Source: Octopus vulgaris | Lineage: Eukaryota | DNA: 64,000 nt | Assembly: GCA_951406725.2 (NCBI GenBank) | Contig: OX597817.1 | Span: 97,712,001 to 97,776,000, forward strand | Direction: 5' to 3' | Part shown: positions 11,349 to 45,736 of the stretch, in pieces | How positions within the stretch are numbered: the first letter of the stretch is position 1 | How the letters are laid out: each line of letters starts with the position of its first letter | Position numbers and translations under genes: made by a program | The notes under the pieces: generated by a model | What the model saw: the letters and a program-made list of their open reading frames with translations, nothing else | What the model was told of the DNA's origin: nothing | The model's database searches: none

Positions 11349-12164
11349 TGGAATTGTAGGCCCGTCTCTTGCAATTTCGATCAATTGTATCTTGTCCTCC
11401 CTCTTGTATAGAAGTGTGGCTACAATCCAGCCTACCTCTACTTCTGGGGGACATTTTTAATTTTTATCCGGGACGTCCTACGTCCCAGATATAAAGGTAA
11501 AAATAAAATATTTCCACTTTGCAAGGTTCGAGTCGAGTCCTCCCTTGCACGCTTCGTTGACTCGAACCTTGCTTCTATTGTGGCGAATTTACCGCCTCTG
11601 GTTAGATACTTGATATCTTTCAAGACACTTTTCGATGGTGCTTTCCTCCAGCTGTTCAAATCTTTTTTTTCTCTACATCGTATACTTTATAGACAATAGT
11701 CTTTTCTTTTGGTGGTGTTATCCTAGATTCCCCGTCTTTGTCGGTGATCAATCCTAAATAGGTTTGTATTTCTTCCATTTTAATTTTAATGAGTTCGCGC
11801 CCACCGACGGCTGCAGCGAAATTCATTTTTGGACTTTCTTCTATCGAAGGCATTCTAACAAAAATGCTTCCGTATAAACGGTGAAAATATTGTCAATTTC
11901 CCCAAACAGAGACACAATTCAATTTTTAAACAATAACCAAAGCTCCTTCTCCCAAAGTGGGGGGTTTACGGTTTACAATTATTTAACAAATGCAACACAA
12001 CAACGTTTCCCTTACGAGGAACCAACAAACGTGATAACAATAGTTAAACAGTAATAATAATAACAACAAACCTTACGGTGAATCAAAAAGCAGTACGCAG
12101 TTGAAGCTATAGTCCTTTATGTATAAGAAATAAACCAACAGCAGTACTCAGTAGAAGCGGTTGT
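11349..12164 (-). mobile_element. Tx1-clade LINE 5'UTR plus ORF1 fragment (element B)
   Basis: ORFs 11656-11853 and 11438-11659 resemble ORF1 at 16765-17217 and 40404-41126 (IVYK..., EKCL, F.T.E.RF). Confidence 0.75.
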
Positions 12165-12422
12165 GATTTTTTATTACCCACAAGGGGCGAACAAAGAGGG
12201 AACAACACAATCTGATTTGGGGTCAGATTTACGAATGGTTTTACATAGATGATGAATTTAAAAATTTTAACACATAATTACGAATCACAATAAAAACGAA
12301 AAAATCGGATGATGGGACTGACCGGAAAACATTGCGGATGGAGTGGGGGGGGGGGCGGGTTTAGCTCGGACCCCACGAGCCCCGCCTCGCCACTGATACC
12401 TGGGTTTCATCCTGTCCTACAT

Positions 12423-15400
12423 TTATGTGGTACCATTCATACGCGACATCTGTGCTACATTCTTCCATCGTTTTTCGAACACTTTCTCAGTCAGGCATTT
12501 TCTCTCCAGCCCTATTTTCCTTTTCAGGTGGAAGATGAAGTAATTCATCAATCCAGGGCCAGAGATGAAATTGCCTGACTCTATACCTTTCAGCCTCGTC
12601 TTCCAAATCACCTCTCTCGCAATTGCAACTACAACGAGAAAACAATTCTTACCTTCTTTCGAGAGGAAATCCGGTGAGTCAATTTTTACAATAGACTCAG
12701 TCGACAGCTGTACTCTTCGTGTGTTTGACAACAGTTGTTCGGCATAAACCCACACCTCTGACACCTCCGGACATTGAACAATAGCATGCGGGACGGTTTC
12801 CCTATCCCGCTCGCATCTTGGACATGTCGGATTGCCTCGGCCACCATGCCTTGCGAGTTTGTCCCGAACAGGTAGAGCTCCTCTGTAACATTGCCATGCC
12901 AGAGACTTCTGAAAGTTGTCCAGGGTCTTCGGCCCGAATGTACGTCGGAACAGACTGGCCAGCTGATTATCATCGAGACCTAGGGTTTCCCCTAAAGTAT
13001 CGTCACATTCCGCCTCTACCAGCCCTCTATAGAAGAATGTGGTGGAACCCCCACTGCAGGCGTTGCACGAGCGACGGAATAGCAGGAGAGCATTGCGACA
13101 CTCCGTAAACCATGTGCCCAGTTTTGATCTTCGATTCAACCAGGTTTCCCATCCACCGAAACTAGTAAACTTGGGAAACATCCGTTTCACCAGCGGAGAC
13201 CACACCCGTTCACCATCCGGGTAGAGCCACAGATGCTCAACCTCAGCGCATGTGCGCACATCAACAGCCAAGGCATCCCTAGCTCACCCTTTAACGGTTG
13301 TTGACAGCAAGTAGAGCGTTTCACAAGCGGTTTCGAGCCCCTCCACAAAAAGTGAAAGAGCTGTCTTTCCAGCTTGATCAACCACGAATCAGGGCAAGGA
13401 ACGACGGATAGGCGGTAGGTGATGACCGATGCGATAAACACATTGGCTACTTCCGCCCTTCCTTTCAGGGATAGCCACCGCCAAGACCAGGTCTTGACTA
13501 CTGCAGCCACCCTGCTCGATACCTCGGCCTAGTTCTTCTCTATTTGGAGGTCTGGTCCAAACCAAACCCCTAGCAACTTAATCGGACCCTCCGTCCAACG
13601 TCCCACGACGCTGTCAGGAGGCATTGACTTGCCTCTTCAGGTGCCGAACTGCAAGCCGACTGACTTTTCCCGATTAACTTTTGCTCCTGCCACCATCTCG
13701 TAAACCTCTATGACCTTGCCTACCCTCTGTAGGTGATCCATTTCGGTTACGATGATGGTGATGTCATCCGCGTAAGCTGACACCGATTTTCCACAACCTG
13801 GCTGTCTCGGGATGCCGCTCAATTTTCGCAGTAATGGCTCAAGAGCCATCACGTACAAAAGCGGGGAGAGCGGACACCCTTGACGAACCGAGCGTTTGAT
13901 GTTGAACGGCTTCGATAAGAAGTCGTTCACCCGAACTACCGAGTCGATGTTGTCGTAAATCTGAATGATCCACCTGAGGAAGCCAAGACCCAGGCCGAAC
14001 TGTGCAGGACGGACACCAGGTAGCGATGGTCAACCCTATCAAAAGCCTTAGATTGGTCTAAATGGACCAGTGCCCCACCATTGCCATAATCACTATTAAC
14101 CCCCTCTAAAGTGTACCGCATAAGATAGAGATTATCCTGAATGGTTCTGCCGGGAACGGCACATATCTGTGCCTCCCCGATCAGACCATCCACGACACGC
14201 GCCAATCTTTTCGATAACACTTTGGCCAAAATCTTCAACTCTGTGTTTAGCAGAGTGATGGGCCGAACATTATCAATACAATCCCCCTTGTCCGGGGCCT
14301 TCTGACAAGCGTCACTACTCCCCGGCGCACAGATCTGGGAATAAACCCGTTCTGCTGCCAGTTCGCGTAGACCTCCGCCAGTAGGTTCCCGAACAAGTCT
14401 GGCATACTCTTATATAACTCATAGGGTAGACCATCTAGTCCTGGCGCCTTACCTGCGCCGCAGTCCGCCATAGCCTCAGCCACCTCCTCAGGCGTGATCG
14501 GCCTTTCACAGCTCGCCACGTCTCGCCCCGATAGGCGCGGCAGCCTGTCGGGGAGGTCCGTAAAGTCCCTCCTACTATCCGGTCCGCCGCCCCCACAGAA
14601 AAGTTGAGCGAAGTGCCCCTGAAAAGCCTCACACATCTCCTCGGGTTCGTCTATATACGCCGAATGTGCATATATTTTTCTAAATTACTCTTTTCAGTAT
14701 TTAGCTTCTTTTCCTTTTTACCAGCTACCTTGTTGGTTCGTCAAAGATCGAATTGTGGCATCATTACCACGTTGAGCCTCCACCACTCGGGCCCATCCTG
14801 CGGCGTTGATTCCCTCACAACCCACTACGCAGATCCTAGCCCTGACAATGCAGCCCATGTGTTTGGCCTCGAGGTGCTGGTTTAACGCCAGTCTCTTGGC
14901 CGTCACCTGAGGCGCAGAGCCAGTTTTCATGGCTTCCTCTAAATCCTTAACTAGAGTTGATCCCCTCCTAGCCTCTCTAGCCACTAATCCTATACTATAT
15001 CTAATAGACTCGAATTTTATGGCTCGCTTGAGAGCATACCACCATTTATTATTAATGACAGCACCAAGATAGCGCCCTCTGAATCAAAGTCCTAATCCGG
15101 TCTCTGTATTCCTTAATCGCCAAAAGGGACGTATTAAGTTTCCAATAACCGGAGCCTCTCTTATATACCTTATCTATGTCAAGCTTACAGGCGATCACTG
15201 TAGCTGACCGGGTAAAACTGTGGACACTTAGCTATTTCTCCATCTGCTTTTCTAATTAGTACTCTATCTATGCAAGACCTGGAAGATCCGTCGCTATTTG
15301 ACCATGTCCACAATGGAGCGTTCGGAAATTCCAACCTATAAGGATCTGCTAGCTCAAACCGTCTTAGCAGTTCCAAGAAGCCAGGGTTACCTTTTCTATC

Positions 15401-15875
15401 TGTACACGAGCCAACAAAATCTACTCGCGCCTGATAAATTGTGTTGTAGTCTCCTAGCACAACTAACGAATGTGAAGTACTAAGAAACTTCTCTAGCTCT
15501 CGAAAATATTCACTTTGCCCAGATGATGATGAGGGTGCATAAATTGCAACCAGTCTGCTAACTTTACTGTTACTGAACGTCAAATCCATGACGACCAGCC
15601 TACCTTCTGGATCTGAAAAAAATTAACTTTTTCTCAAAAACCCGGTTTCTTTTTAATAGTACCAACACCCCACTCCCGCCAGTAGGACTGCCTGGAGAGA
15701 AAAAACTCTCGTAGCCGTTCAACAGCGAGAGCAGATCTCTTGGCCCCTCTAACCGGGTTTCTGTAGCAACAATGACATCCAAATTCCGCGACCTGATATC
15801 ATTAAGGAAGCGACCCTGCTTCCAGCTTGATCTCAGGCCACGCACATTTAAACAACCAACATGAATGTTAGACAT
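12423..15875 (-). pseudogene. Tx1 ORF2 (EN-RT-zinc finger), multiple frameshifts
   Basis: CLNVRGL, VLGDYN, IDRVL, LDQSKAFDRV, RQGCPLSP, AYADD, CPRC...H...C. Confidence 0.92.
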
Positions 15876-15916
15876 TACTTACCTCAGTATTAGTGGTTCG
15901 GCGTTTCTTCATCCTC

Positions 15917-17217
15917 TTATTCTTTTTCCCGGGCTAGTGGCGTATTTGGACGTAGGCCCTCGTAAATATATGGAGAAAAATCCATTCTTAGCGGGCCTAC
16001 GTCGTGGAAGAATTCGGACTTAATCCACCCGTAATCCTTCCGGCTTATCTTGTAGATAAGGAGGTGTTTCGATGTAATTTTTTCAACTCGTTTGATAGTT
16101 GGGATAACCGCCAGACGGTCGACTAGTCTGTTGTTTGATGCCTTTATGGCCATGTACGTATTGTCTTTCTCTTGTTCATTTTTCTTTTTTATATTCAATT
16201 TGGGAGGGGCGGTCTGTGTTTTTTTTGTTCTTTTTCTTAGAAGTAGTCGACCACCCCTCCTCTCTGTCTTTCTCTTCACTTTCTTCTGTCGCTGGTGATG
16301 TAACATCTTTAGGTGTTGGTGATGGTGTTTCTTTCGGTGTTGGTTCTGGTGTTGTTTCATCTGGTGTTTCTTCTTTTCTTTCCTTCTCTTTAGGTTGGCA
16401 CTCGGCCATGATGTGCCCCTTCAACCCGCAGTTGAAGCGTCTCGGTTTTCTGCCTTCCACGTATACTATCAGTCTCTCGCCTCCGCCAACATTTATAGCT
16501 TCTGGAATTTCTTCTAAGGTTGCTACCTCCGCTTGAATTGCCATCGTCAAGCATTGCCCCTTCCAATGCTCTTCCTCTTACACTGAGGCCTGGAAATATT
16601 TATTTTTTCATCCAGGCCTAATGTTATTGCTGCCACTAAACAAGTAGCATCCACTTCAGGGGGCTGTTGTTTATTTTTATTTTTGATGTTCTTCTTCCCA
16701 TGTATATTGGAAGAAGAACCACCTCCTCTATTTTGAGTGTCTCCGAAGAGTACTTTTTCGCTGCTTATTCTGTTTTAAACCTTACCTCCACTGTACCGAA
16801 CCTTTTTCTACGGTTGATGTAGGTGATTTCGGGCCAAATTGGTTTCAGGCATTTTTCCACTTTTTTTCCCTCTATTCTTTGAATCATTTTTTTAACTATG
16901 CTGTACGTCTTGTAGATGATCCTTTTCCTGTTTACTGCGTCGGTCGTTCCTTCTATTGTAGCCACTGTAATTTCCGTTCCTTCTTTTTTCAACATGTGCA
17001 TATATTTTTCTAAATTACTCTTTTCAGTATTTAGCTTCTTTTCCTTTTTACCAGCTACCTCTGCGAATTTCTTCGGTGAGACTGCTGGTGTTTTTTCGTT
17101 TTGTTTTTTCGGTGTTACTGCTGGTGAACTACTTTCTTCACCTGACACAGGTAAGAAAGAGAAAGGTGTATGCATTTCCATTTTTCCACAACAAGTTGGC
17201 TTAAAAAAGCCTTTCAC
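15917..17217 (-). pseudogene. Tx1 ORF1 (zinc-knuckle protein), frameshifted
   Basis: EGRKPRRFNCGLKGHIMAEC degenerate CCHC knuckle in ORF 16176-16550. Confidence 0.8.
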
Positions 17218-17422
17218 AAAATTGGCTTCAAAAGCCTTTCACAAAAATTGGCTTAAAGAGCCACAAGATAACAATAATTTCAACAAATAGCTTTCAAAGA
17301 AAGCAAATAAAAGTTCTTTTTAAAAACAATAACAATAATTCACAGTAACAATAACAATATTTACAAGGAAAAAAATTGACACGTACCAACAACTGTAGAG
17401 GCGGCTGTTCGAGAAAACAGAC

Positions 17423-28166: not shown

Positions 28167-31017
<2,851 letters not shown>

Positions 31018-34657: not shown

Positions 34658-37411
34658 ATCATCATCATCATCGTTTAACGTCCGCTTTCCATGCTAGCAT
34701 GGGTTGGACTGAGGGATGGCGAGCCAGATGGCTGCACCAGGCTCCAATCTTGATCTGGCAGAGTTTCTACAGCTGGATGCCCTTCCTAACGTCAACCACT
34801 CCGAGAGTGTAGTGGGTGCTTTTTACGTGCCACTGGCATGGGGGCCAGTCAGGCGGCACTGGCAACGACCTCACTCGAATCTTTTTACACGTGCCACCGG
34901 CGCAGGTGTCAGTGAGGCATCGTTCGTAACGATCACGCTCGAATGGTGCCCTTTTACATGCCACGAGTATGGAAGCCAGTTGGCTGCTCTGGCAACGATC
35001 ACGCTCGGATGGTGCTCTTGGCACCCTGCTAGCACAGGCATAAGTGCCAGTAAGGCAATGCTGGTAACGATCATACTCGAATAGCCGCTCTGTCAACGAT
35101 CACACTCGTATGGTGCTCTTTGCATCCTGCTAGCACGAATGCCAGTAATCGAATTGATTTTGATTTGGATTTGGATCTCACTTGCCTCAACAGGTCTTCA
35201 CAAGTAGGGTTTGTGTCACAAGAAGGAAAGGTATGCATAAGTGGGCTGGCTACGTCCCAGGTAGAGGCCACGGGTTATGGTCTCATTTGTCCTGCCGGGT
35301 CTTCCCACGCACAGCATACTTCCAAAGGTCTCGGTCTCTGGTCATTTCCTCGATGATACCTAAAGTACGAAGGTCGTGCTTCACCACCTCATCCCAGGTT
35401 TTCCTGGGTCTACCTCTTCCACAGGTTCCCTCAACCGCTAGGGTGTGGCACTTTTTCACACAACTATCTTCATCCATTCTCGCTACATGACCACACCAGC
35501 GCGAACGTCTCTCATGCACACCACATCTAATGCTTCTTAGGTCCAACTTTTCTCTCAAGGTACTTACACTCTGTCGAGTATGCACACTGACATTACACAT
35601 CCATCGGATCAAACTGGCTTCATTCCTTGCAAGCTTACGCATGTCCTCAGCAGTCACAGCCCATGTTTCACTGCCGTGTAGCATGGCTGTTCGTACACAT
35701 GCGTCATACAGTCTACCTTTTACTCTGAGCGAGAGGCCCTTTGTCACCAGCAGAGGTAAGAGCTCTCTGAACTTTGCCCAAGCTATTCTTATTCTAGCAG
35801 CTACACTTTCAGTGCACCCTCCTTCGCTACTGACTTGGTCACTTAGATAACGGAAGCTATCAACTACTTCTAGTTTTTCTCCCTGGAATGTGGCGGAAGC
35901 TGGTCTCTGCTCATTTTCAGTGTTTATTGCTCCCGAGCATCTGCCACATACAAAAACTATCTTTCCAGTTAGCCTTCCTTTAATATTACTGCACCTCTTA
36001 TGTGTCCATAGCTTACACTGGGTACATCTTATAGAATTTCTACCTACGCCTCTACTACAGATCAAGCAGGGCCATCTACCTGAAGGGATTTGTGGTCTGC
36101 CTGCCTTCCTACTTATTTGGACTTTGGTTTTAGCTAGGTTGATTTTTAAGGCCCTTCGATTGTAATCCTTGTTTCCACACTTGATACTTCTCCTCTAGTT
36201 CTGATAGTGACTCAGCAATTAGAGCAAGGTCGTCAGCATAGAGGAGCTCCCAGGGGCATCCTGTCTTGAATTCCTCCGTTATTGCCTGGAGGACTATGAT
36301 AAATAGGAGGAGGCTGAGGACTGAACCCTGGTGTACCCCAACCTCTACCTTGAATTCTTCAGTGTACTCGTTGCCAACCCTTACCTTACTTACAGCCTCC
36401 CTGTACATGGCTTGCACAGCTCTCACTAACCATTCATCTATCCCTAGTTTCCTCATTGACCACCAGATAAGGGATCGGGGGACCCTGTCAAAGGCTTTCT
36501 CCATGTCAACGAAAGCCATGTACAGGGGCTTATCTTTGGCTAGGTATTTCTCCTGCAGCTGTCTCACCAGAAATATGGCATCAGTGGTGCTTTTCCCTGG
36601 CACGAAACCAAACTGCATCTCATCCAAACTTACTCTCTCCCTAAACTTCATTACCTGATCCAACAGCTTGATACCTCTGTAATTATTTGTATCTAGGGCG
36701 TCACCTTTACCTTTGTAGCAGTTGACTATTATGCTGGTACACCAGTCATTGGGTATGACTCTTTCGTGTATCACCTGGTTAACTATACGGGTGACTAGGC
36801 TATAGCTGACACTACCAGATATTTTGAGCATTTCTGCAGTAATTCTTGATGGGCCTGGGGCTTTCCCTGTCTTCATGCTTCTAATTGCCTTAACTACCAA
36901 GGAACTGTCAACTCGGATAGCAGGTCTCTCTGTTGGGTCGACATTCGGCAGTCTTTCTTTATCCCATTCATTTTCTTTATTCAGCAACCTTTCATAGTGA
37001 CGTCTCCAAACCTCTCTCTTTGCATCCTCATTTAGCGCAAGTGAATCATCATCCATGCGAACAAATTTCTCTCCTACCACATCACAATTCTCTCTCACAC
37101 ACTGTCTTGCAAGACAAAATACCTCAAGTCTTTGGTCCTCACGGTGCAGAACATTGGCAAATTTTTTCTTATCTGCTTCCCCTCTGGCTAAATAAACCTG
37201 CCTCCTAGCTTCCCTTCTGGCAGTCTGATACACTTCCCTGCTATCACTGTTCTTCCAGTCCTTCCAAGCCTGTTTCTTTTGTCTAATAGCCTTGTCAACA
37301 ACATTGTTCCACCACCACGTTATTTTGGGTTGAGAGGGGGCTTTGCACCATCCACAGAGCTGGTCAGTGGCCCTTAGCAGGTTGTCCTGTAGGAACCTCC
37401 AGTTGTCTTCT

Positions 37412-37416
<5 letters not shown>
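34658..37416 (-). mobile_element. RTE-clade LINE, 5'-truncated
   Basis: ORFs 36130-37233 and 35283-36065 (FVDMEKAFD, LYADD, GSETW, GRGRPRKTW); same family as 1285-3722. Confidence 0.94.
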
Positions 37417-37447
<31 letters not shown>

Positions 37448-38084
37448 GAGGGGAAATGAATTTCCTTAAAATAATAGGTATATATAAAGCATATAGCTTA
37501 TATCCATTCAAAAGAGGAAAAGAAAATGGAGATTAGGAAGTTAACAATTGCTTATGATTAACAACAAATTGGTCATTTTTGCTTCTTACAGCCTTTCAGT
37601 TAATACTCAGTAATTTAATTACAAATTTGTACATTAGATTTACATTTATGTGACATGAGTATGATTTCATCAAAGGAGAAAGATGTACCTTTGGATGTTA
37701 TATATGGACTTATCAATTCATTTTAGCTGACTAAAATCTCCATTTTCTTTTCTTCTTTTAGACAGATATTAACCATATACATATATAACTTAATTATTAT
37801 TTTTGTTGTACATCCATTTTCCATGCAGATATGGACTGGTCAGTTCTTATTTGGAATTATAGCCACAATATGAACTGACCAGGTGAATTAGTAAAGTCAT
37901 TCGAGCATAAGATAGATTGCTTTGCATTTGCAGTATTCATTCAGTCACTTGTGCTCTAAGTTCAAAAAACACTAAAGTCAAACCTGAAGAGAGATTAGAG
38001 TCACCATGTCAAAAATGGAAAGTACTGTCTGATTTTTTTGAAAACATTTGATTTAAGATGTTATTTTTTAAGTGCTTTAGACAA

Positions 38085-39340: not shown

Positions 39341-39497
39341 TATATCAATATATCATGGCAGTGCCCAAAGCAAGGCATAAATACATACTGTTTTAATCCT
39401 TAAAATGTTGGATTGTTATAATGTCCACTTCAGTATACAGTATATTTAATAAAACCAGTAAATACACGACTATCTCTGACCACTTACTATGTACTCT

Positions 39498-41261
39498 TTT
39501 CTTTATTTGGCACTACAGCCATAACACAGAGGGGACACTACAAGGATGACAGAACATCACAGTGGGGACAAAAAACATAAAACAAATGAAAATGAAATGA
39601 CTGCATGGGTCCCACCCCCATACAGTACCATTTGAACATTTAATACACTGTTTACAATTATTCATTCTCCTTTGTTTTTTTTTCTTTATCGTTTTTTCTC
39701 TTTTTTTCCTTTTTTTCCAATAAAACAATTTAACTTACTTTTTCCTTTTTCTTAGTATTTCATAAAAGGTTTGAGATATTTCAATTCCACTACTGGTGGC
39801 AATTTATCAAATTCCACCGCTACTCTTGGTGGATCAATTCCCCCTCCACACATATCTCTCAGCCTATCAACCACAATGGCCTTCACATTCTCCGAATACA
39901 CTTCTATGGGCAACTTCACCCTTATGATGATAGACTTAAATTTCATTATCTTCCGTTCTGTTTCCTTGTTTTACGCATATGTCACAAAATTCCATCGATA
40001 TTTTGGGGGATTTCTTACTTGCTTTCCCTTTTCCTGCTCCACTGCTGGTACCTTTTCTCTTCCCTCCTCTACTCTGAATAATCTCTCCATTTCACCCTCA
40101 TATAATTGTTCTCCTGAATCCTCCTCCTCTACTGGTACAATCAATGTCTTTGCTGCTGTCTCCTCCTCGAGCTCCTTTTCAAGTTCCCTTTCGATCTTCT
40201 TGTCAACCACCATTTTATTTTCCTTCTGACTTCCTTCACAACCTCTTTCTCTACCATTTCTTTCTTTTTCTGCCTCTCTGGTTGGAGGGCTTACTCTATC
40301 ACTTCTCTTTCTTGTACCACTTGGTCTGCACTCTCTTGCTTCTCAGTCTGTTCTATCTATTGTTCTCTCTGGGGGCACCTCGCCTTCATGTGGTCTTTTT
40401 CTCTTATTCGTAGCATATGGGCGGCCTACCCTCCACCACCACTCGCAGCCTTATGTCTTCAGGCAGAACTATCTCTTCTGCGATTCTTTTGAGGTCTTCT
40501 ATACTCGCTTGAATGGCCATTTCTATGCCATACCCCCAATAGTTCACACTTTTGGTTCTTGTGGCCTTGAGAATCTTGGCCTCCTCCTCCATATTGAACA
40601 TAATGGCTGCCATCGGCCATGTTTCTTTTATCTCTGGTGGCACTTTGCCAACTCCCACCCTGGCAACACGTTTGCCACAGTCGGTCGGCAAAAGCACCCA
40701 TTCCTCTGTTCTTATGGCTTCCGTGGAGTGCTTAATTGCTTTATCCTCTATCGCTAAATGCACCTCCACAGTACCATACTTTCTTTCTCTGGTAATGAAC
40801 GTAGTCAACCTCTTTATTTCCTTCAAACATTCCTCAATAGCCACGATTGTTGCTATTTCAACCTTTCTGCTTGCTACCTTCAGTGTTTTATAAATTACTG
40901 TCCTTTTTGTTACATTACTTGTGAGTTCTGCAGGCAGCATTAGTCTCAGTGTGTTTCCTTCCTTTTCCAACAATTTGTTACATTCTTTCATTTTCTTTGG
41001 TTCGACTTTTACTTCATGCACCTCCAGCACTTCAACTTCTGTTCCTCTACCAGTTGCAGCTGCATAGCTGGCACCTTCTCCATTTATCCCACAATAGGAA
41101 AAAAAAAAACAATTAAAAAATAACAATAATCAGCAATTTCAACAGCAACAATAATAATGTTGGTTACACCTACGAGGGGAGACATTTAACAAATATTCAA
41201 CAAAGTGACTCATGTCTAACACGACAAAATTAACTCCGATACGAATATCTCAAACCGCATG
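39498..41261 (-). mobile_element. ORF1-only Tx1-related LINE (HAL1-like) inserted in an LTR
   Basis: ORF1 pieces 40404-41126, 39971-40213 and 39752-39946 with EGRPPICYE..DH...RCP knuckle; no ORF2; AATAAA end; TSD ctatgtactct / ctatatactct. Confidence 0.78.
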
Positions 41262-41539
41262 CTATATACTCTGGTACTTCACATAATTCTCTTTACTTAT
41301 AGTGACTATGTTATTCCATTTGTCATGTGGAAGGGGTGTACTATTATCACTAATTTCCTAAAACATCTCCCCTTTTAAGTTTTTCTTATGAAGTGTCATT
41401 TTATTTAGCAACAATTTTATTCCCCTCACCTCCCTTTTTTGATATTTTTTCATACAATTTAATTTTTTTTTTCGATTGGCATCTATTTTCAAGAATTCTG
41501 TACATTTTCTTTTCCTCTTACTTGTATGCCTGGGCATCT

Positions 41540-42008
41540 GCAGTGGTGTTGGTACTTGGAATGTATCGTACTGAAAATTTTACACAATATATCTATTGTG
41601 TCATTAAAATCTATGTCCAAAGATTTTCTTGGGAGTACATAATTACTGTATTGCTCATGTTCTGTCACTGCCAGTTTTCTCTTGATTAAGTGCTTTTTCA
41701 TCTTGTCATCCCAGTCTTTACAGTCTTTATCAAAGATTTGCTCATATCTTCTGTAGTATGCTTCAAAGGTAACTCCTTCATCAGGTTCATATTTGAACTC
41801 TGTTATGGAGTGTGCAACATAGTTTGTCAAGAACAATTTTTCTGACTTTCCTGACAACTTCAGTAATTGCAGCATTTGTTGCTATAATATTAATTGTTGT
41901 TGTTGCTTCTGTTGTTGCTCTTGCAGTTGTATCTGCTGCTGTTGTTCTTTCAGCTGTTGTTGTGACTGTTTTTGCAACTCGAGCAAACCTGCTAACAAAT
42001 ATTCCATA
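41540..42008 (-). pseudogene. Gypsy gag N-terminus
   Basis: Q-rich start, then ITEFKYEPDEGVTFEAYYRRYEQIF...RKL...EHEQYSNYVLP, typical of K02A2.6/Mag gag. Confidence 0.82.
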
Positions 42009-42298
42009 CTTTTATGATTTTTCGTAAAATTCATACACCAACTTTGTGAGTTTATTAACTCCTCTTTAAGTTTCTGTTAACTGCACATAAATTGATTTAT
42101 CCTCATCGAGTTTATTAATTCCTCATGGGTTGTTCAAATCCTCGTTGAGTTTATGAATTCCTTGTGAGTTGTTTAAATCCTTGTCAAGTTTATTAATTCC
42201 TCGCGAGTTGTTTAAATCCTCATCACCACTGTTATAATCCTTAAAATGTTGGATTTACATAATGCCCACTTCAGTATACAGTATACAGTAAAACCAGT

Positions 42299-42696
42299 AT
42301 TGTTGCTATTTCGATCCTTCTGCTTGCTACCTTCAGTGTTTTATAAATTACTGTCCTTTTTGTTACATTACTTGTGAGTTCTGCAGGCAGCGTTAGTCTC
42401 AGTGTATTTCCTTCCTTTTCCATCAATTTCTTACATTCTTTCATTTTCTTTGGTTCGACTTCAACCATCACTCTATTATCAGTTGCAGCCACATAACTGT
42501 GGTCTCCCACTGGCACCTTCTCCATTTTTCCACAATGGGAAAAAAACAACAATAATCAGCAATTTCAACAGTAACAATCAATAATCTTGGGTAGACCCAC
42601 AAGGGGAAAACCTTCAACGAATATTCAATAAAGTGACTTACGTCTAACAAATAACAAGACAAAATTAACTCCGATACAAATATTTTAAACTGCCTG
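42299..42696 (-). mobile_element. 5' part of the same ORF1-only LINE inside the other LTR
   Basis: ORF 42271-42552 shares EKEGNTLRL.LPAELTSNVTKRTVIYKTLKVASR; same 5' junction with the LTR. Confidence 0.8.
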
Positions 42697-42836
42697 CTAT
42701 GTACTCTGGTACTTCATGTACTTCTCTTTACTTATAGTGACTAGGTTATTCCATTTGTTATGTGGGAGAGGTGTACTATTATTACTAATTCCCTACAATA
42801 CATACAAATATGCAAATAATTGAATAATTATATGTG

Positions 42837-45736
42837 TGTAGCGAATTTTGCATGCATGAAGTGGATTCAATCCACCATATCCAAATTTAAATTAACACTG
42901 CAACAGAACTTTTCCCACGAAGGAACAATGGTTTTTCTCTGACAGCAGTTTTACAGTTTCCAGATGCCTTTAGCTAGGCTGAAATAATGTCTTCACTACT
43001 TGACCCTTTCTAACCTCTTCTACTTCACCAAAAGCTAGAATAGATAACAAGACCACCAACTAAATCTATTGTTCTCAATGATATATCTATCCTTCTGAAT
43101 CTTTATATAAGCAAGCAAAAATCGGTTAGTCACTGTGGTGACAACTCAATGAGAACAAAGTCTGGCTGACCAGCTAGAACATTGGTCAGAGGGAGAAATG
43201 AAGTTTACTACCAGTAACTGTGAAACAACGTTTCACACCCTACAATTCTCTCTAGCTCTAATTCTGTTCTCTTACAACATCATTCTATGTCTCCGCAATT
43301 ACTACTAAACAATGAAGCGAACCCTAATACAAACTTTACTTCGCATGCCTTTGGATTTATCATTAACCTGCTCGTCGAGGCAAGGTATTTGTAATGTAAC
43401 AGTAAATAAATATTTTCTTAAAACTTCATGCCTTGTCTATCATTCACATTTTACAATAGACAGCAACAACAACTTTTTATCATTGCATCTGCTGACTCCA
43501 ACTCATAATAATAATATTTACCAAACCAATTTCTGCCGTTACAATTGGTGACCCACGACTTCAACTAAAAATAATATCGTTACAACCAATTGCCGTTGCA
43601 ACTGGTGACCCTCAAACAAGAGCATTGCAGCCTTCCTAAGAACCAACCATTACAAACTAGCGACCCCAACATTGTACCATAACAGACATCGCTATTAAAC
43701 AAAACTTCAATTGCAACAACTTGGTGACCTGTGTAAAGAGAATTGATACCTTCCGATGCTGCATGCCGCTGCATTTTTACTGATTCGAACTAAAGAACTA
43801 GAATATCAACCGTCACCAAATCAAAGAAAAAGAATCACCACCAAGATGCATCCTCCATTGACCTGCTACAGAAAGCACTATACCTCGATGCAATCTACGA
43901 TGCACTTCACAACAATACAACATAGCCGACGCCCAAGGTATTTGCCTACATGAACAGAAACTAACTGGAAGAAAATACAAAAGCCTGCACATGCAACCTT
44001 TTTGGCACACACGCACTTTTCGTCTAGTCCCGACGTATAAACCCTGCATTGTCTGTGAACTTTTGCATGTACATAAGACTCTCACATAGACATTCAACAA
44101 ATCTTTTCCTTTGCATGCACATCTTTTCACTTTCAGCTGTAGACTTTTAACAAAGGACACTATTTTCAGTTAAGTTTATTATTTCCGCTTTTTTATTATT
44201 CATATTTTGCATGTACTTTTTAACGTTAACTTTGCAAATGTTTATATTGTTGCATATACACATGCGTGCACCTTTCCTCATAGCCTGGCCTTGCACATGC
44301 ATCTGCACACTTTGCTCATACACACATACATGTTGACTCTGTTACATTCATACACCACACATGCCTTTCTCGCTTGTTTTCCATACTCAATGCGCCCTTG
44401 TAGACAACTCATCTCTGTAAGACCCTAGGTCAGTCACGCATACATGAAGTTGTTTGTCCCCTACAATGCACCAGCATGCCACACTTTTGTTCCTGCATGA
44501 TCGAGGCATATAATACCTCATGCACTGGCTGGCAGCCTCAGCCTTACTGCATTAATCACTGGCATATTCAATACTGTACACTATTTTTGTAATCAATGCA
44601 CTAGCATTAGCCTCAGCCTTGCAAGCTCTATTGCACTCATGCACATGCACATCTACTGCCTTATTTTGCAATATGTCTGCGTCAGCCCAATTCTTCTCCC
44701 GACTCAAAGCACGTCGGATGATCACATGCTCTGCGCTCATGTTTAGACATAATTTCCCCCTGTTAGACCCCTGTTTGGTCAATAATTAACAGAGCAAATT
44801 ATCTGTCTCGCGCATCACTCAAGCATGCTTACACTGTCGTCCTTGCTAACTCAGCAATTAACCACGACAACAGCACCAGACACATTTCACTTCGGGCTTT
44901 CACCTTCAAGGTATTTCAAACACTGCAACCCGGCAGGAAAATCTTTCATATCACGGATTGAGAATGCACTCACTCGCTCATCTCAGCTTATTTTACAGTC
45001 AATTTCGAAACGTGCACCTGCATTCCTGTATATGCCCTCACGCGCACACATGCGCTCATTTGCTGTACTGCCCAGTCACTGACTGCACACATTTTGGCAC
45101 GCAAAGCGACACCACTATTCAAACTAATCCAAACAGAAAACTGTTCCGTATACACTTCAACGATCCTCTCTCCTGATATGCAAATTTTACCTTTACCATG
45201 CATTTCTTCATTTCCTTCGATCATTCGTTTCCTTACCAGGAAGCTCACTGGCAGGGGGAGTGTATGTAGTGAATCTTGCATGCATGAAGTGGATTCAATC
45301 CACCATATCCAAATTTAAATTAACACTGCAACAGAGCTTTTCCCACGAAGGAACAATGGTTTTTCTCTGACAGCAGTTTTACAGTTTCCAGATGCCTTTA
45401 GCTAGGCCAAAATAATGTCTTCCTCACTTGACCCTTTCTAACCTCTACTACTTCACCAAAAGCTAGAATAGATAACAAGACCACCAACTAAATCTATTGT
45501 TCTCAATGATATATCTATCCTTCTGGATCTTTATATAAGCAAGCATACCACAAGTAAAAATCAGTTAGTCACTGCGGTGACAACTCAATGAGAACGAAGT
45601 CTTGCTGACCAGCTAGAACATTGGTCAGAGGGAGAAATGAAGTTTACTACCAGTAACTGTGAGACAACGTTCCACACCCTGCTGAGTATCAATATTTCAT
45701 CATAATATAGTTTACCAATCAATTAAAACCGTTACA
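42837..45736 (+). mobile_element. Non-autonomous non-coding LTR element (LARD-like); LTRs 42837-43543 and 45265-45736 (second one internally deleted)
   Basis: TG...CA LTRs near-identical over about 420 bp; PBS tggtgacccacgac 43546-43559; PPT ggcagggggag 45250-45260; no credible ORF. Confidence 0.85.

What the first reader, a model, noticed from the sequence alone, without database searches (positions are those of the whole stretch)
39389..42800. Gypsy element with the same LINE at the same site in both LTRs
Seen: a TSD-bounded (catac) gag-only Gypsy element. Its 3' LTR contains a 1.76-kb LINE with an 11-bp TSD (ctatg/atactct). Its 5' LTR contains the 5' end of the same LINE joined at the same LTR position, and the rest is deleted. 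Established: reverse transcription copies LTR sequence into both LTRs, and some Tx1-clade LINEs target other transposons (Xenopus Tx1L into Tx1D). Inference: either the LTR element transposed after capturing the LINE, giving a composite LTR of about 2 kb that carries an ORF1 gene, or this LINE family site-specifically targets this LTR. Either would be an unusual hitchhiking system.
Basis: partly seen in the sequence, partly recalled or inferred. Interest (0 to 1): 0.75.

Follow-up and report, generated by a model that had tools for sequence, protein, structure and literature searches.

The report
LINE homing to Gypsy LTR promoters
A short jumping gene lands again and again at one exact spot in the end-repeats of another jumping gene, about 30 bases behind a TATA box where transcription likely starts, and the two copies seen here most likely landed separately rather than riding along when the host element moved.

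Summary
The structure is real: a Gypsy-type element (TSD catac, PPT, PBS, gag remnant) with an ORF1-only L1/Tx1-type LINE at the same base in both LTRs. Site-specific targeting is well supported: 20 other loci carry this LINE group at that LTR site, and 6 of 16 LINE 3' ends picked without regard to flank sit there. The site lies 29-31 bases behind the LTR's TATA box, the predicted U3/R boundary, and the LINE head resembles R. Composite amplification is unsupported: of 9 elements with both LTRs readable and at least one filled, 7 have one empty LTR, and the only other double holds two different subfamilies. In the window, LINE-LINE and LTR-LTR divergence are equal (11%), so that test cannot decide. 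The 5' copy carries another subfamily's haplotype in one block and is close to the 3' copy in another, which fits two insertions plus gene conversion; a common origin is not rejected (AU p=0.155). Tx1 families that prefer LTR elements are in print (crocodilians), and this scan has already noted start-site targeting by Tx1 on other DNA of this genome. New here: the LTR target and the R mimic.

The parts
39384..39388 (.). left target-site duplication of the LTR element (catac)
39389..39497 (-). 3' LTR, downstream part (predicted R-U5); its last 11 bases 39487-39497 are the LINE's TSD
39498..41261 (-). ORF1-only LINE, 1764 bp, same orientation as the LTR element; ends in AATAAAGAAA
   Evidence: no ORF2 hit by tblastn
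39752..41083 (-). ORF1 remnant, broken by frameshifts and stops; longest open part 40404-41129
   Evidence: 39% identity to ORF1 of a full Tx1-type element in the window; weak zf-CCHC in sister copies
41238..41261 (-). LINE 5' head that resembles the LTR sequence behind the target site
   Evidence: 16 of 24 identical, reached by 3 of 100000 shuffles
41262..41365 (-). 3' LTR, upstream part (predicted U3) with TSD 41262-41272
41296..41301 (-). TATA-like box TATAAG, 29 bases before the TSD
41366..41377 (-). polypurine tract
41489..41881 (-). gag remnant (DUF7083)
42217..42228 (-). primer-binding-site-like sequence TGGTGATGAGGA; priming tRNA not identified
42230..42298 (-). 5' LTR, remnant of downstream part; deletion junction at 42298/42299 with one shared base
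42299..42696 (-). 5' part of the second LINE copy; mosaic: 42299-42461 close to the 3' copy, 42462-42696 of another haplotype
42697..42800 (-). 5' LTR, upstream part with TSD-type 11-mer 42697-42707 and TATAAG at 42731-42736
42801..42805 (.). right target-site duplication (catac)

Best explanation
An ORF1-only LINE family inserts, facing forward, at one fixed base of this short Gypsy LTR, 29-31 bases behind its TATA box, likely the transcription start, and the two copies in the window most likely came from two separate insertions followed by a deletion and a likely gene-conversion patch. Shown: the fixed site, the 10-11-base TSD, the orientation, the TATA spacing, the lack of ORF2, the head that resembles R. 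Inferred: mobilisation in trans by a Tx1-type ORF2; use of the LTR promoter for the LINE's own transcription; the head plus TSD rebuilding the target so that later copies stack at the promoter side; conversion as the cause of the close block.
For: Hand tally over: 20 other loci carry this LINE group at or within a few bases of the same LTR site. Pattern on the LINE 3' end alone: 16 hits, 6 in the LTR site (one is the window), 2 in the head of another copy, 8 elsewhere. Elements with both LTRs readable and at least one filled: 7 of 9 have one empty LTR (L092, L097/L138, L111, L116, L122, L172, L176). L122 holds a 5'-truncated copy with a clean TSD. The other double, L098, holds two subfamilies: 346/452 identical to each other, while its 3' copy is 207/227 identical to the copy at L172 and its LTR parts are 93/106. 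In the window the 5' copy shares a five-site haplotype with L002/L035/L036/L038 that the 3' copy lacks; the 3' copy shares its state with L032. TATA 29-31 bases before the TSD in 7 of 8 filled LTR junctions, and at 30-31 in 14 of 18 LTR target sites. Non-LTR targets L056 and L124 have TATA at 29 and 32. Tandem copies at L093, L096, L101.
Against: LINE-LINE (41/371) and LTR-LTR (18/162) divergence are the same (Fisher p=1.0), as a single copying event predicts. In 42299-42461 the two copies are each other's closest relatives (7/160) and share two states found in none of the five closest other copies. A clade of the two is not rejected (p-AU 0.155). Two doubles in nine exceed independent filling at 5-10% occupancy (p 0.02-0.08; occupancy is a rough figure, 2 of 29). 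The start site is predicted from sequence only. Of 5 TSD calls outside LTRs apart from L056 and L124, none is left with a TATA: L054, L057, L084 and L091 show none (two are tandem junctions), so TATA spacing outside the LTR rests on few loci.
Confidence: 0.68

Rival explanations
1. The family targets the LTR, but this element was born with the LINE in both LTRs: a parent with a filled LTR was reverse-transcribed, the R-like head allowing strand transfer, and part of the 5' copy was later overwritten by another copy.
For: Equal LINE and LTR divergence; close block with shared rare states; AU test does not reject; slight excess of doubles; head matches R.
Against: Reverse transcription makes the LTRs identical at integration (established knowledge), yet the 5' copy has another subfamily's haplotype over 42462-42520, which needs conversion from an unlinked locus. 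No second element with matching copies in both LTRs among 9; deletion junction unique among 40 scored hits. The LINE's own AATAAA would be expected to end transcripts early (inference).
Confidence: 0.2
2. One insertion only; the second LTR gained the LINE later by conversion or repair from its partner LTR 1.4-2.8 kb away.
For: Close block 7/160 against 34/211 in the next block (p=0.0003, the most uneven of 21 pairs). Conversion between the LTRs of one element is documented in plants (PMC5751070, abstract only).
Against: The junction-side block, which such an event had to copy, is the one with the foreign haplotype.
Confidence: 0.09
3. Local tandem duplication or misassembly.
For: None beyond the repeated layout.
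Against: 11% divergence, TSD, PPT and PBS in the right places; eight relatives with the same two-LTR layout; junction present in contigs of two public runs.
Confidence: 0.03

Closest known systems
Tx1-8_Crp and Tx1-4_AMi of crocodilians (Kojima 2015, PMC4494074; passages and section 15 read, supplements not read)
   Same: [quoted passage not shown]
   Different: The text read gives no position within the element, no link to the LTR start site and no ORF1-only form; its supplementary figures may show the sites.
Tx1 in Tx1D (Xenopus), Tx1-Mar and SINEU-3 in Mariner-N4_AMi, Keno in U2 genes (same paper, passages)
   Same: One preferred site in a multicopy target; non-autonomous passengers share the target; transcription from the flanking target proposed.
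   Different: Targets are DNA transposons or snRNA genes; passengers are SINEs, not ORF1-coding elements.
HAL1, half-L1 (PMC5753468, passage read; the primary paper was not held)
   Same: Non-autonomous LINE derivative that encodes only ORF1.
   Different: HAL1 derives from mammalian L1; no target specificity is stated in the passage read.
Start-site-targeting Tx1 families noted earlier by this scan in the same genome (unchecked AI notes)
   Same: Forward insertion about 30 bases behind TATA, ORF1-only partners, heads that mimic the target, tandem chains.
   Different: Targets listed there are SINEs, Helitrons, ribozyme repeats, U2 and gene promoters; no note on this LTR came up.

Membership tests
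Gypsy-type LTR retrotransposon (host) | Two direct LTRs with TG...CA ends, short TSD, PBS and PPT | tested here: met
   one end reads TA
Gypsy-type LTR retrotransposon (host) | gag and pol homology | tested here: inconclusive
   DUF7083 gag piece here; rve fragment in relative L174; no full pol seen
Gypsy-type LTR retrotransposon (host) | Domain order RT-RH-INT or RT phylogeny (Gypsy versus BEL or Copia) | not tested
   the label rests on recalled DUF7083 and PBS/PPT style
L1/Tx1-type LINE | ORF1 related to that of an element with APE + RT + zf-RVT ORF2 | tested here: met
   39% identity to ORF1 of the full element at window 12178-17400; RT relatives carry PF03372, PF00078, PF13966
L1/Tx1-type LINE | Variable 5' truncation, fixed 3' end, TSD | tested here: met
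Tx1 clade (as against L1) | RT phylogeny with named Tx1 references | not testable with these tools
   no named Tx1 RT was returned; Tx1 is inferred from the zinc-knuckle ORF1 and target specificity
Tx1 clade | Target preference: one sequence type in more than 20% of flanks (criterion of PMC4494074) | tested here: met
   6 of 16 (8 of 16 with tandem heads); the pattern was chosen for this subfamily
HAL1-like ORF1-only LINE | ORF1 only, no ORF2, propagated as a unit | tested here: met
   full copies 1.8-1.9 kb with TSD; no ORF2 hit in them. Works like HAL1; not a member, since HAL1 is L1-derived
Composite (hitchhiking) LTR | Matching LINE copies in both LTRs at several loci | tested here: not met
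   0 clear cases of 9; window ambiguous, L098 two subfamilies

The most novel reading that the evidence does not exclude
The LINE is an LTR-promoter parasite that can also ride in the LTR element: sitting at the start of R with a head that mimics R, it lets strand transfer work, so a filled 5' LTR is copied into both LTRs of a daughter element, and the window is such a daughter.
Probability: 0.15. Interest if true: 0.75.

Novelty: new variant of a known kind. Interest (0 to 1): 0.42.

Why it matters
It adds a compact, well-defined Pol II promoter (a 200-bp LTR) to the targets of a LINE group that appears to home on transcription starts. With 20 filled and many empty natural sites, it lets one ask whether the endonuclease reads sequence or is led by the initiation complex, an open question for target-specific LINEs. 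Insertion at the LTR start would also be expected to silence the host element or divert its promoter: one transposon parasitising another. All copies seen are old (LTR pairs 84-89% identical), which limits direct experiments.

Tried and rejected
LTR trees were not built; the two window LTRs are no closer to each other than to other copies. Public runs: no RNA holder listed; only 41985-42515 was laid, on assembled contigs, so the rest of the element and the whole span are unchecked by reads; the raised depth over 42318-42461 could be merged repeats and was not used as evidence of conversion. No tRNA gene in the window; priming tRNA not sought further. Pfam gave no family for the window's ORF1. 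ORF1 search found 7 relatives, 6 named from Octopus bimaculoides; this is the basis for calling the host probably an octopus. Automatic TSD calling failed for most loci because only one end was held; one call there (L031) pairs the 5' LTR junction with the far end and was read as the 5' junction only. Literature searches for LTR hitchhiking or start-site targeting by Tx1 returned no paper on it by listing; subscription journals and Repbase entries are not covered. Filled loci whose partner LTR was missing or not found (L093, L099, L100, L101, L112, L114, L115, L117, L118, L119, L173, L190) were left out of the 9-element census. Genome searches score only the best 40 candidates, so all counts are lower bounds.

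Full report
Observation. The element lies on the minus strand. A catac duplication bounds it (39384-39388, 42801-42805). The 3' LTR (39389-41365) is split by a 1764-bp insert with an 11-bp TSD; then come a PPT, a gag remnant (DUF7083), a PBS-like site and the 5' LTR (42230-42800). The 5' LTR has the same LINE/LTR junction, 398 bp of the LINE's 5' part, and a 1.39-kb deletion with one shared base at the joint. The joint was found nowhere else among 40 scored hits. Eight relatives with two empty LTRs have LTR pairs 83.5-88.4% identical; the window's LTR parts are 144/162. The family is old. Relatives have about 1.75 kb more internal sequence, with an integrase fragment.

What the insert is. It carries one long ORF, broken here and open for 362 codons at L097, with a weak zinc knuckle. 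It is 39% identical over a short stretch to ORF1 of a full element in the window (12178-17400, minus), whose ORF2 type has relatives with endonuclease, RT and zf-RVT domains. tblastn with ORF2 pieces hit no full copy of the insert family. It is therefore an ORF1-only LINE of the L1/Tx1 group, in the manner of HAL1 (PMC5753468, passage). Tx1 rather than L1 is inferred, not shown by a tree. At L130 a Tx1-type ORF2 is joined directly to the 3' half of this family, with no TSD found; a template switch would give this, which would fit mobilisation in trans, but insertion plus deletion would too.

Targeting. Searches with the LINE ends and mapping of fetched loci gave, by hand tally, 20 other loci with this LINE group at or within a few bases of the same LTR position. 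They include several subfamilies, 5'-truncated and internally deleted copies, and tandem stacks. A pattern for the 3' end alone gave 16 hits: 6 in the LTR site, 2 in the head of another copy, 8 elsewhere, 5 of these 8 with a different terminal base. Most LTRs are empty: 2 of 29 were filled in the first search, among 525 candidates. A more distant subfamily uses another repeat as its target.

Where the site is. TATAAG or a variant lies 29-31 bases before the TSD in 7 of 8 filled LTR junctions, and at 30-31 in 14 of 18 LTR target sites. By the usual TATA spacing (established knowledge) this is the start of transcription, the U3/R boundary. All copies seen face the same way as the LTR. The 24 bases after the TSD in the LINE match the 24 bases after it in the LTR at 16 positions (3 of 100000 shuffles; the 5' copy 12, 1262 of 100000), so a full insertion rebuilds a target-like junction at the promoter side. 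I noted the TATA spacing before reading earlier notes, which describe the same habit for Tx1 families on other targets in this genome. No RNA data were available.

One origin or two. Nine elements had both LTRs readable and at least one filled. Seven have one empty LTR, which shows insertion after integration. L098 has both filled, by two subfamilies (346/452 to each other; 207/227 between its 3' copy and L172), which shows that doubles arise by separate insertions. In the window the overall LINE-LINE difference (41/371) equals the LTR-LTR difference (18/162; p=1.0), but unrelated sister copies are just as close (L032 is 90% to the 3' copy). The difference is uneven: 7/160 in 42299-42461 and 34/211 after it (p=0.0003). 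In the second block the 5' copy has a five-site haplotype of the L002 group and the 3' copy that of L032. The best tree separates the two (support 90/90, not starred), but holding them together is not rejected (p-AU 0.155). Reverse transcription would have made them identical throughout, so two insertions plus a short conversion tract is the simplest account; conversion between LTRs of one element is reported in plants (PMC5751070, abstract). Birth as a composite followed by overwriting remains possible, and two doubles in nine is somewhat more than independent filling predicts (p 0.02-0.08).

Comparison with what is known. Kojima 2015 (PMC4494074; passages and section 15) lists Tx1 in Tx1D, Tx1-Mar in Mariner-N4_AMi, and Tx1-8_Crp and Tx1-4_AMi in LTR retrotransposons, and proposes transcription from the flanking target. 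A recent octopus repeat annotation (PMC13282606, passages) lists L1-Tx1 families without target analysis in the passages found. Searches showed no paper on insertion at the LTR start site or on LINE carriage in LTRs; the library is incomplete and supplements of PMC4494074 were not read. Verdict: a new variant of a known kind, real and tidy, with the hitchhiking reading unproven.

Noticed in passing
window 12178-17400 (minus): Full-length, decayed Tx1-type LINE with ORF1 and ORF2 and a roughly 16-base TSD; a second ORF1-bearing element follows head to tail at about 11370-12130.
   Followed up: partly
window 28650-30770 (plus): Second Tx1-type ORF2 remnant.
   Followed up: no
window 35283-37497 (minus): RT-bearing LINE remnant, RTE-like by recall (RVT_1).
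   Followed up: no
window 42833-43241 and 45261-45680: Direct repeats of about 410 bp, 95-96% identical, right beside the element, with PBS-like TGGTGACC motifs between them: probably another small LTR element.
   Followed up: no
L045, L048, L050, L051, L057-L059, L069, L074, L075, L077, L178, L183: A sister subfamily of the ORF1-only LINE sits at one site of another repeat (flank begins CATTGGCGGAGGTTTGCG), often in tandem with other Tx1-type ends.
   Followed up: partly
L130:2112-5820: Tx1-type ORF2 fused to the 3' half of the ORF1-only family, possible template-switch chimera.
   Followed up: partly
L093:2896-6087: Solo LTR holding three LINE pieces stacked at the target site.
   Followed up: partly
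window 42060-42229: Array of 39-base units beside the PBS, each resembling the PBS; also in relatives.
   Followed up: no
L042, L052, L035, L056: Non-LTR landing sites with TATA-like boxes about 30 bases upstream; L042 and L052 share a flank, so probably a further repeat target.
   Followed up: partly
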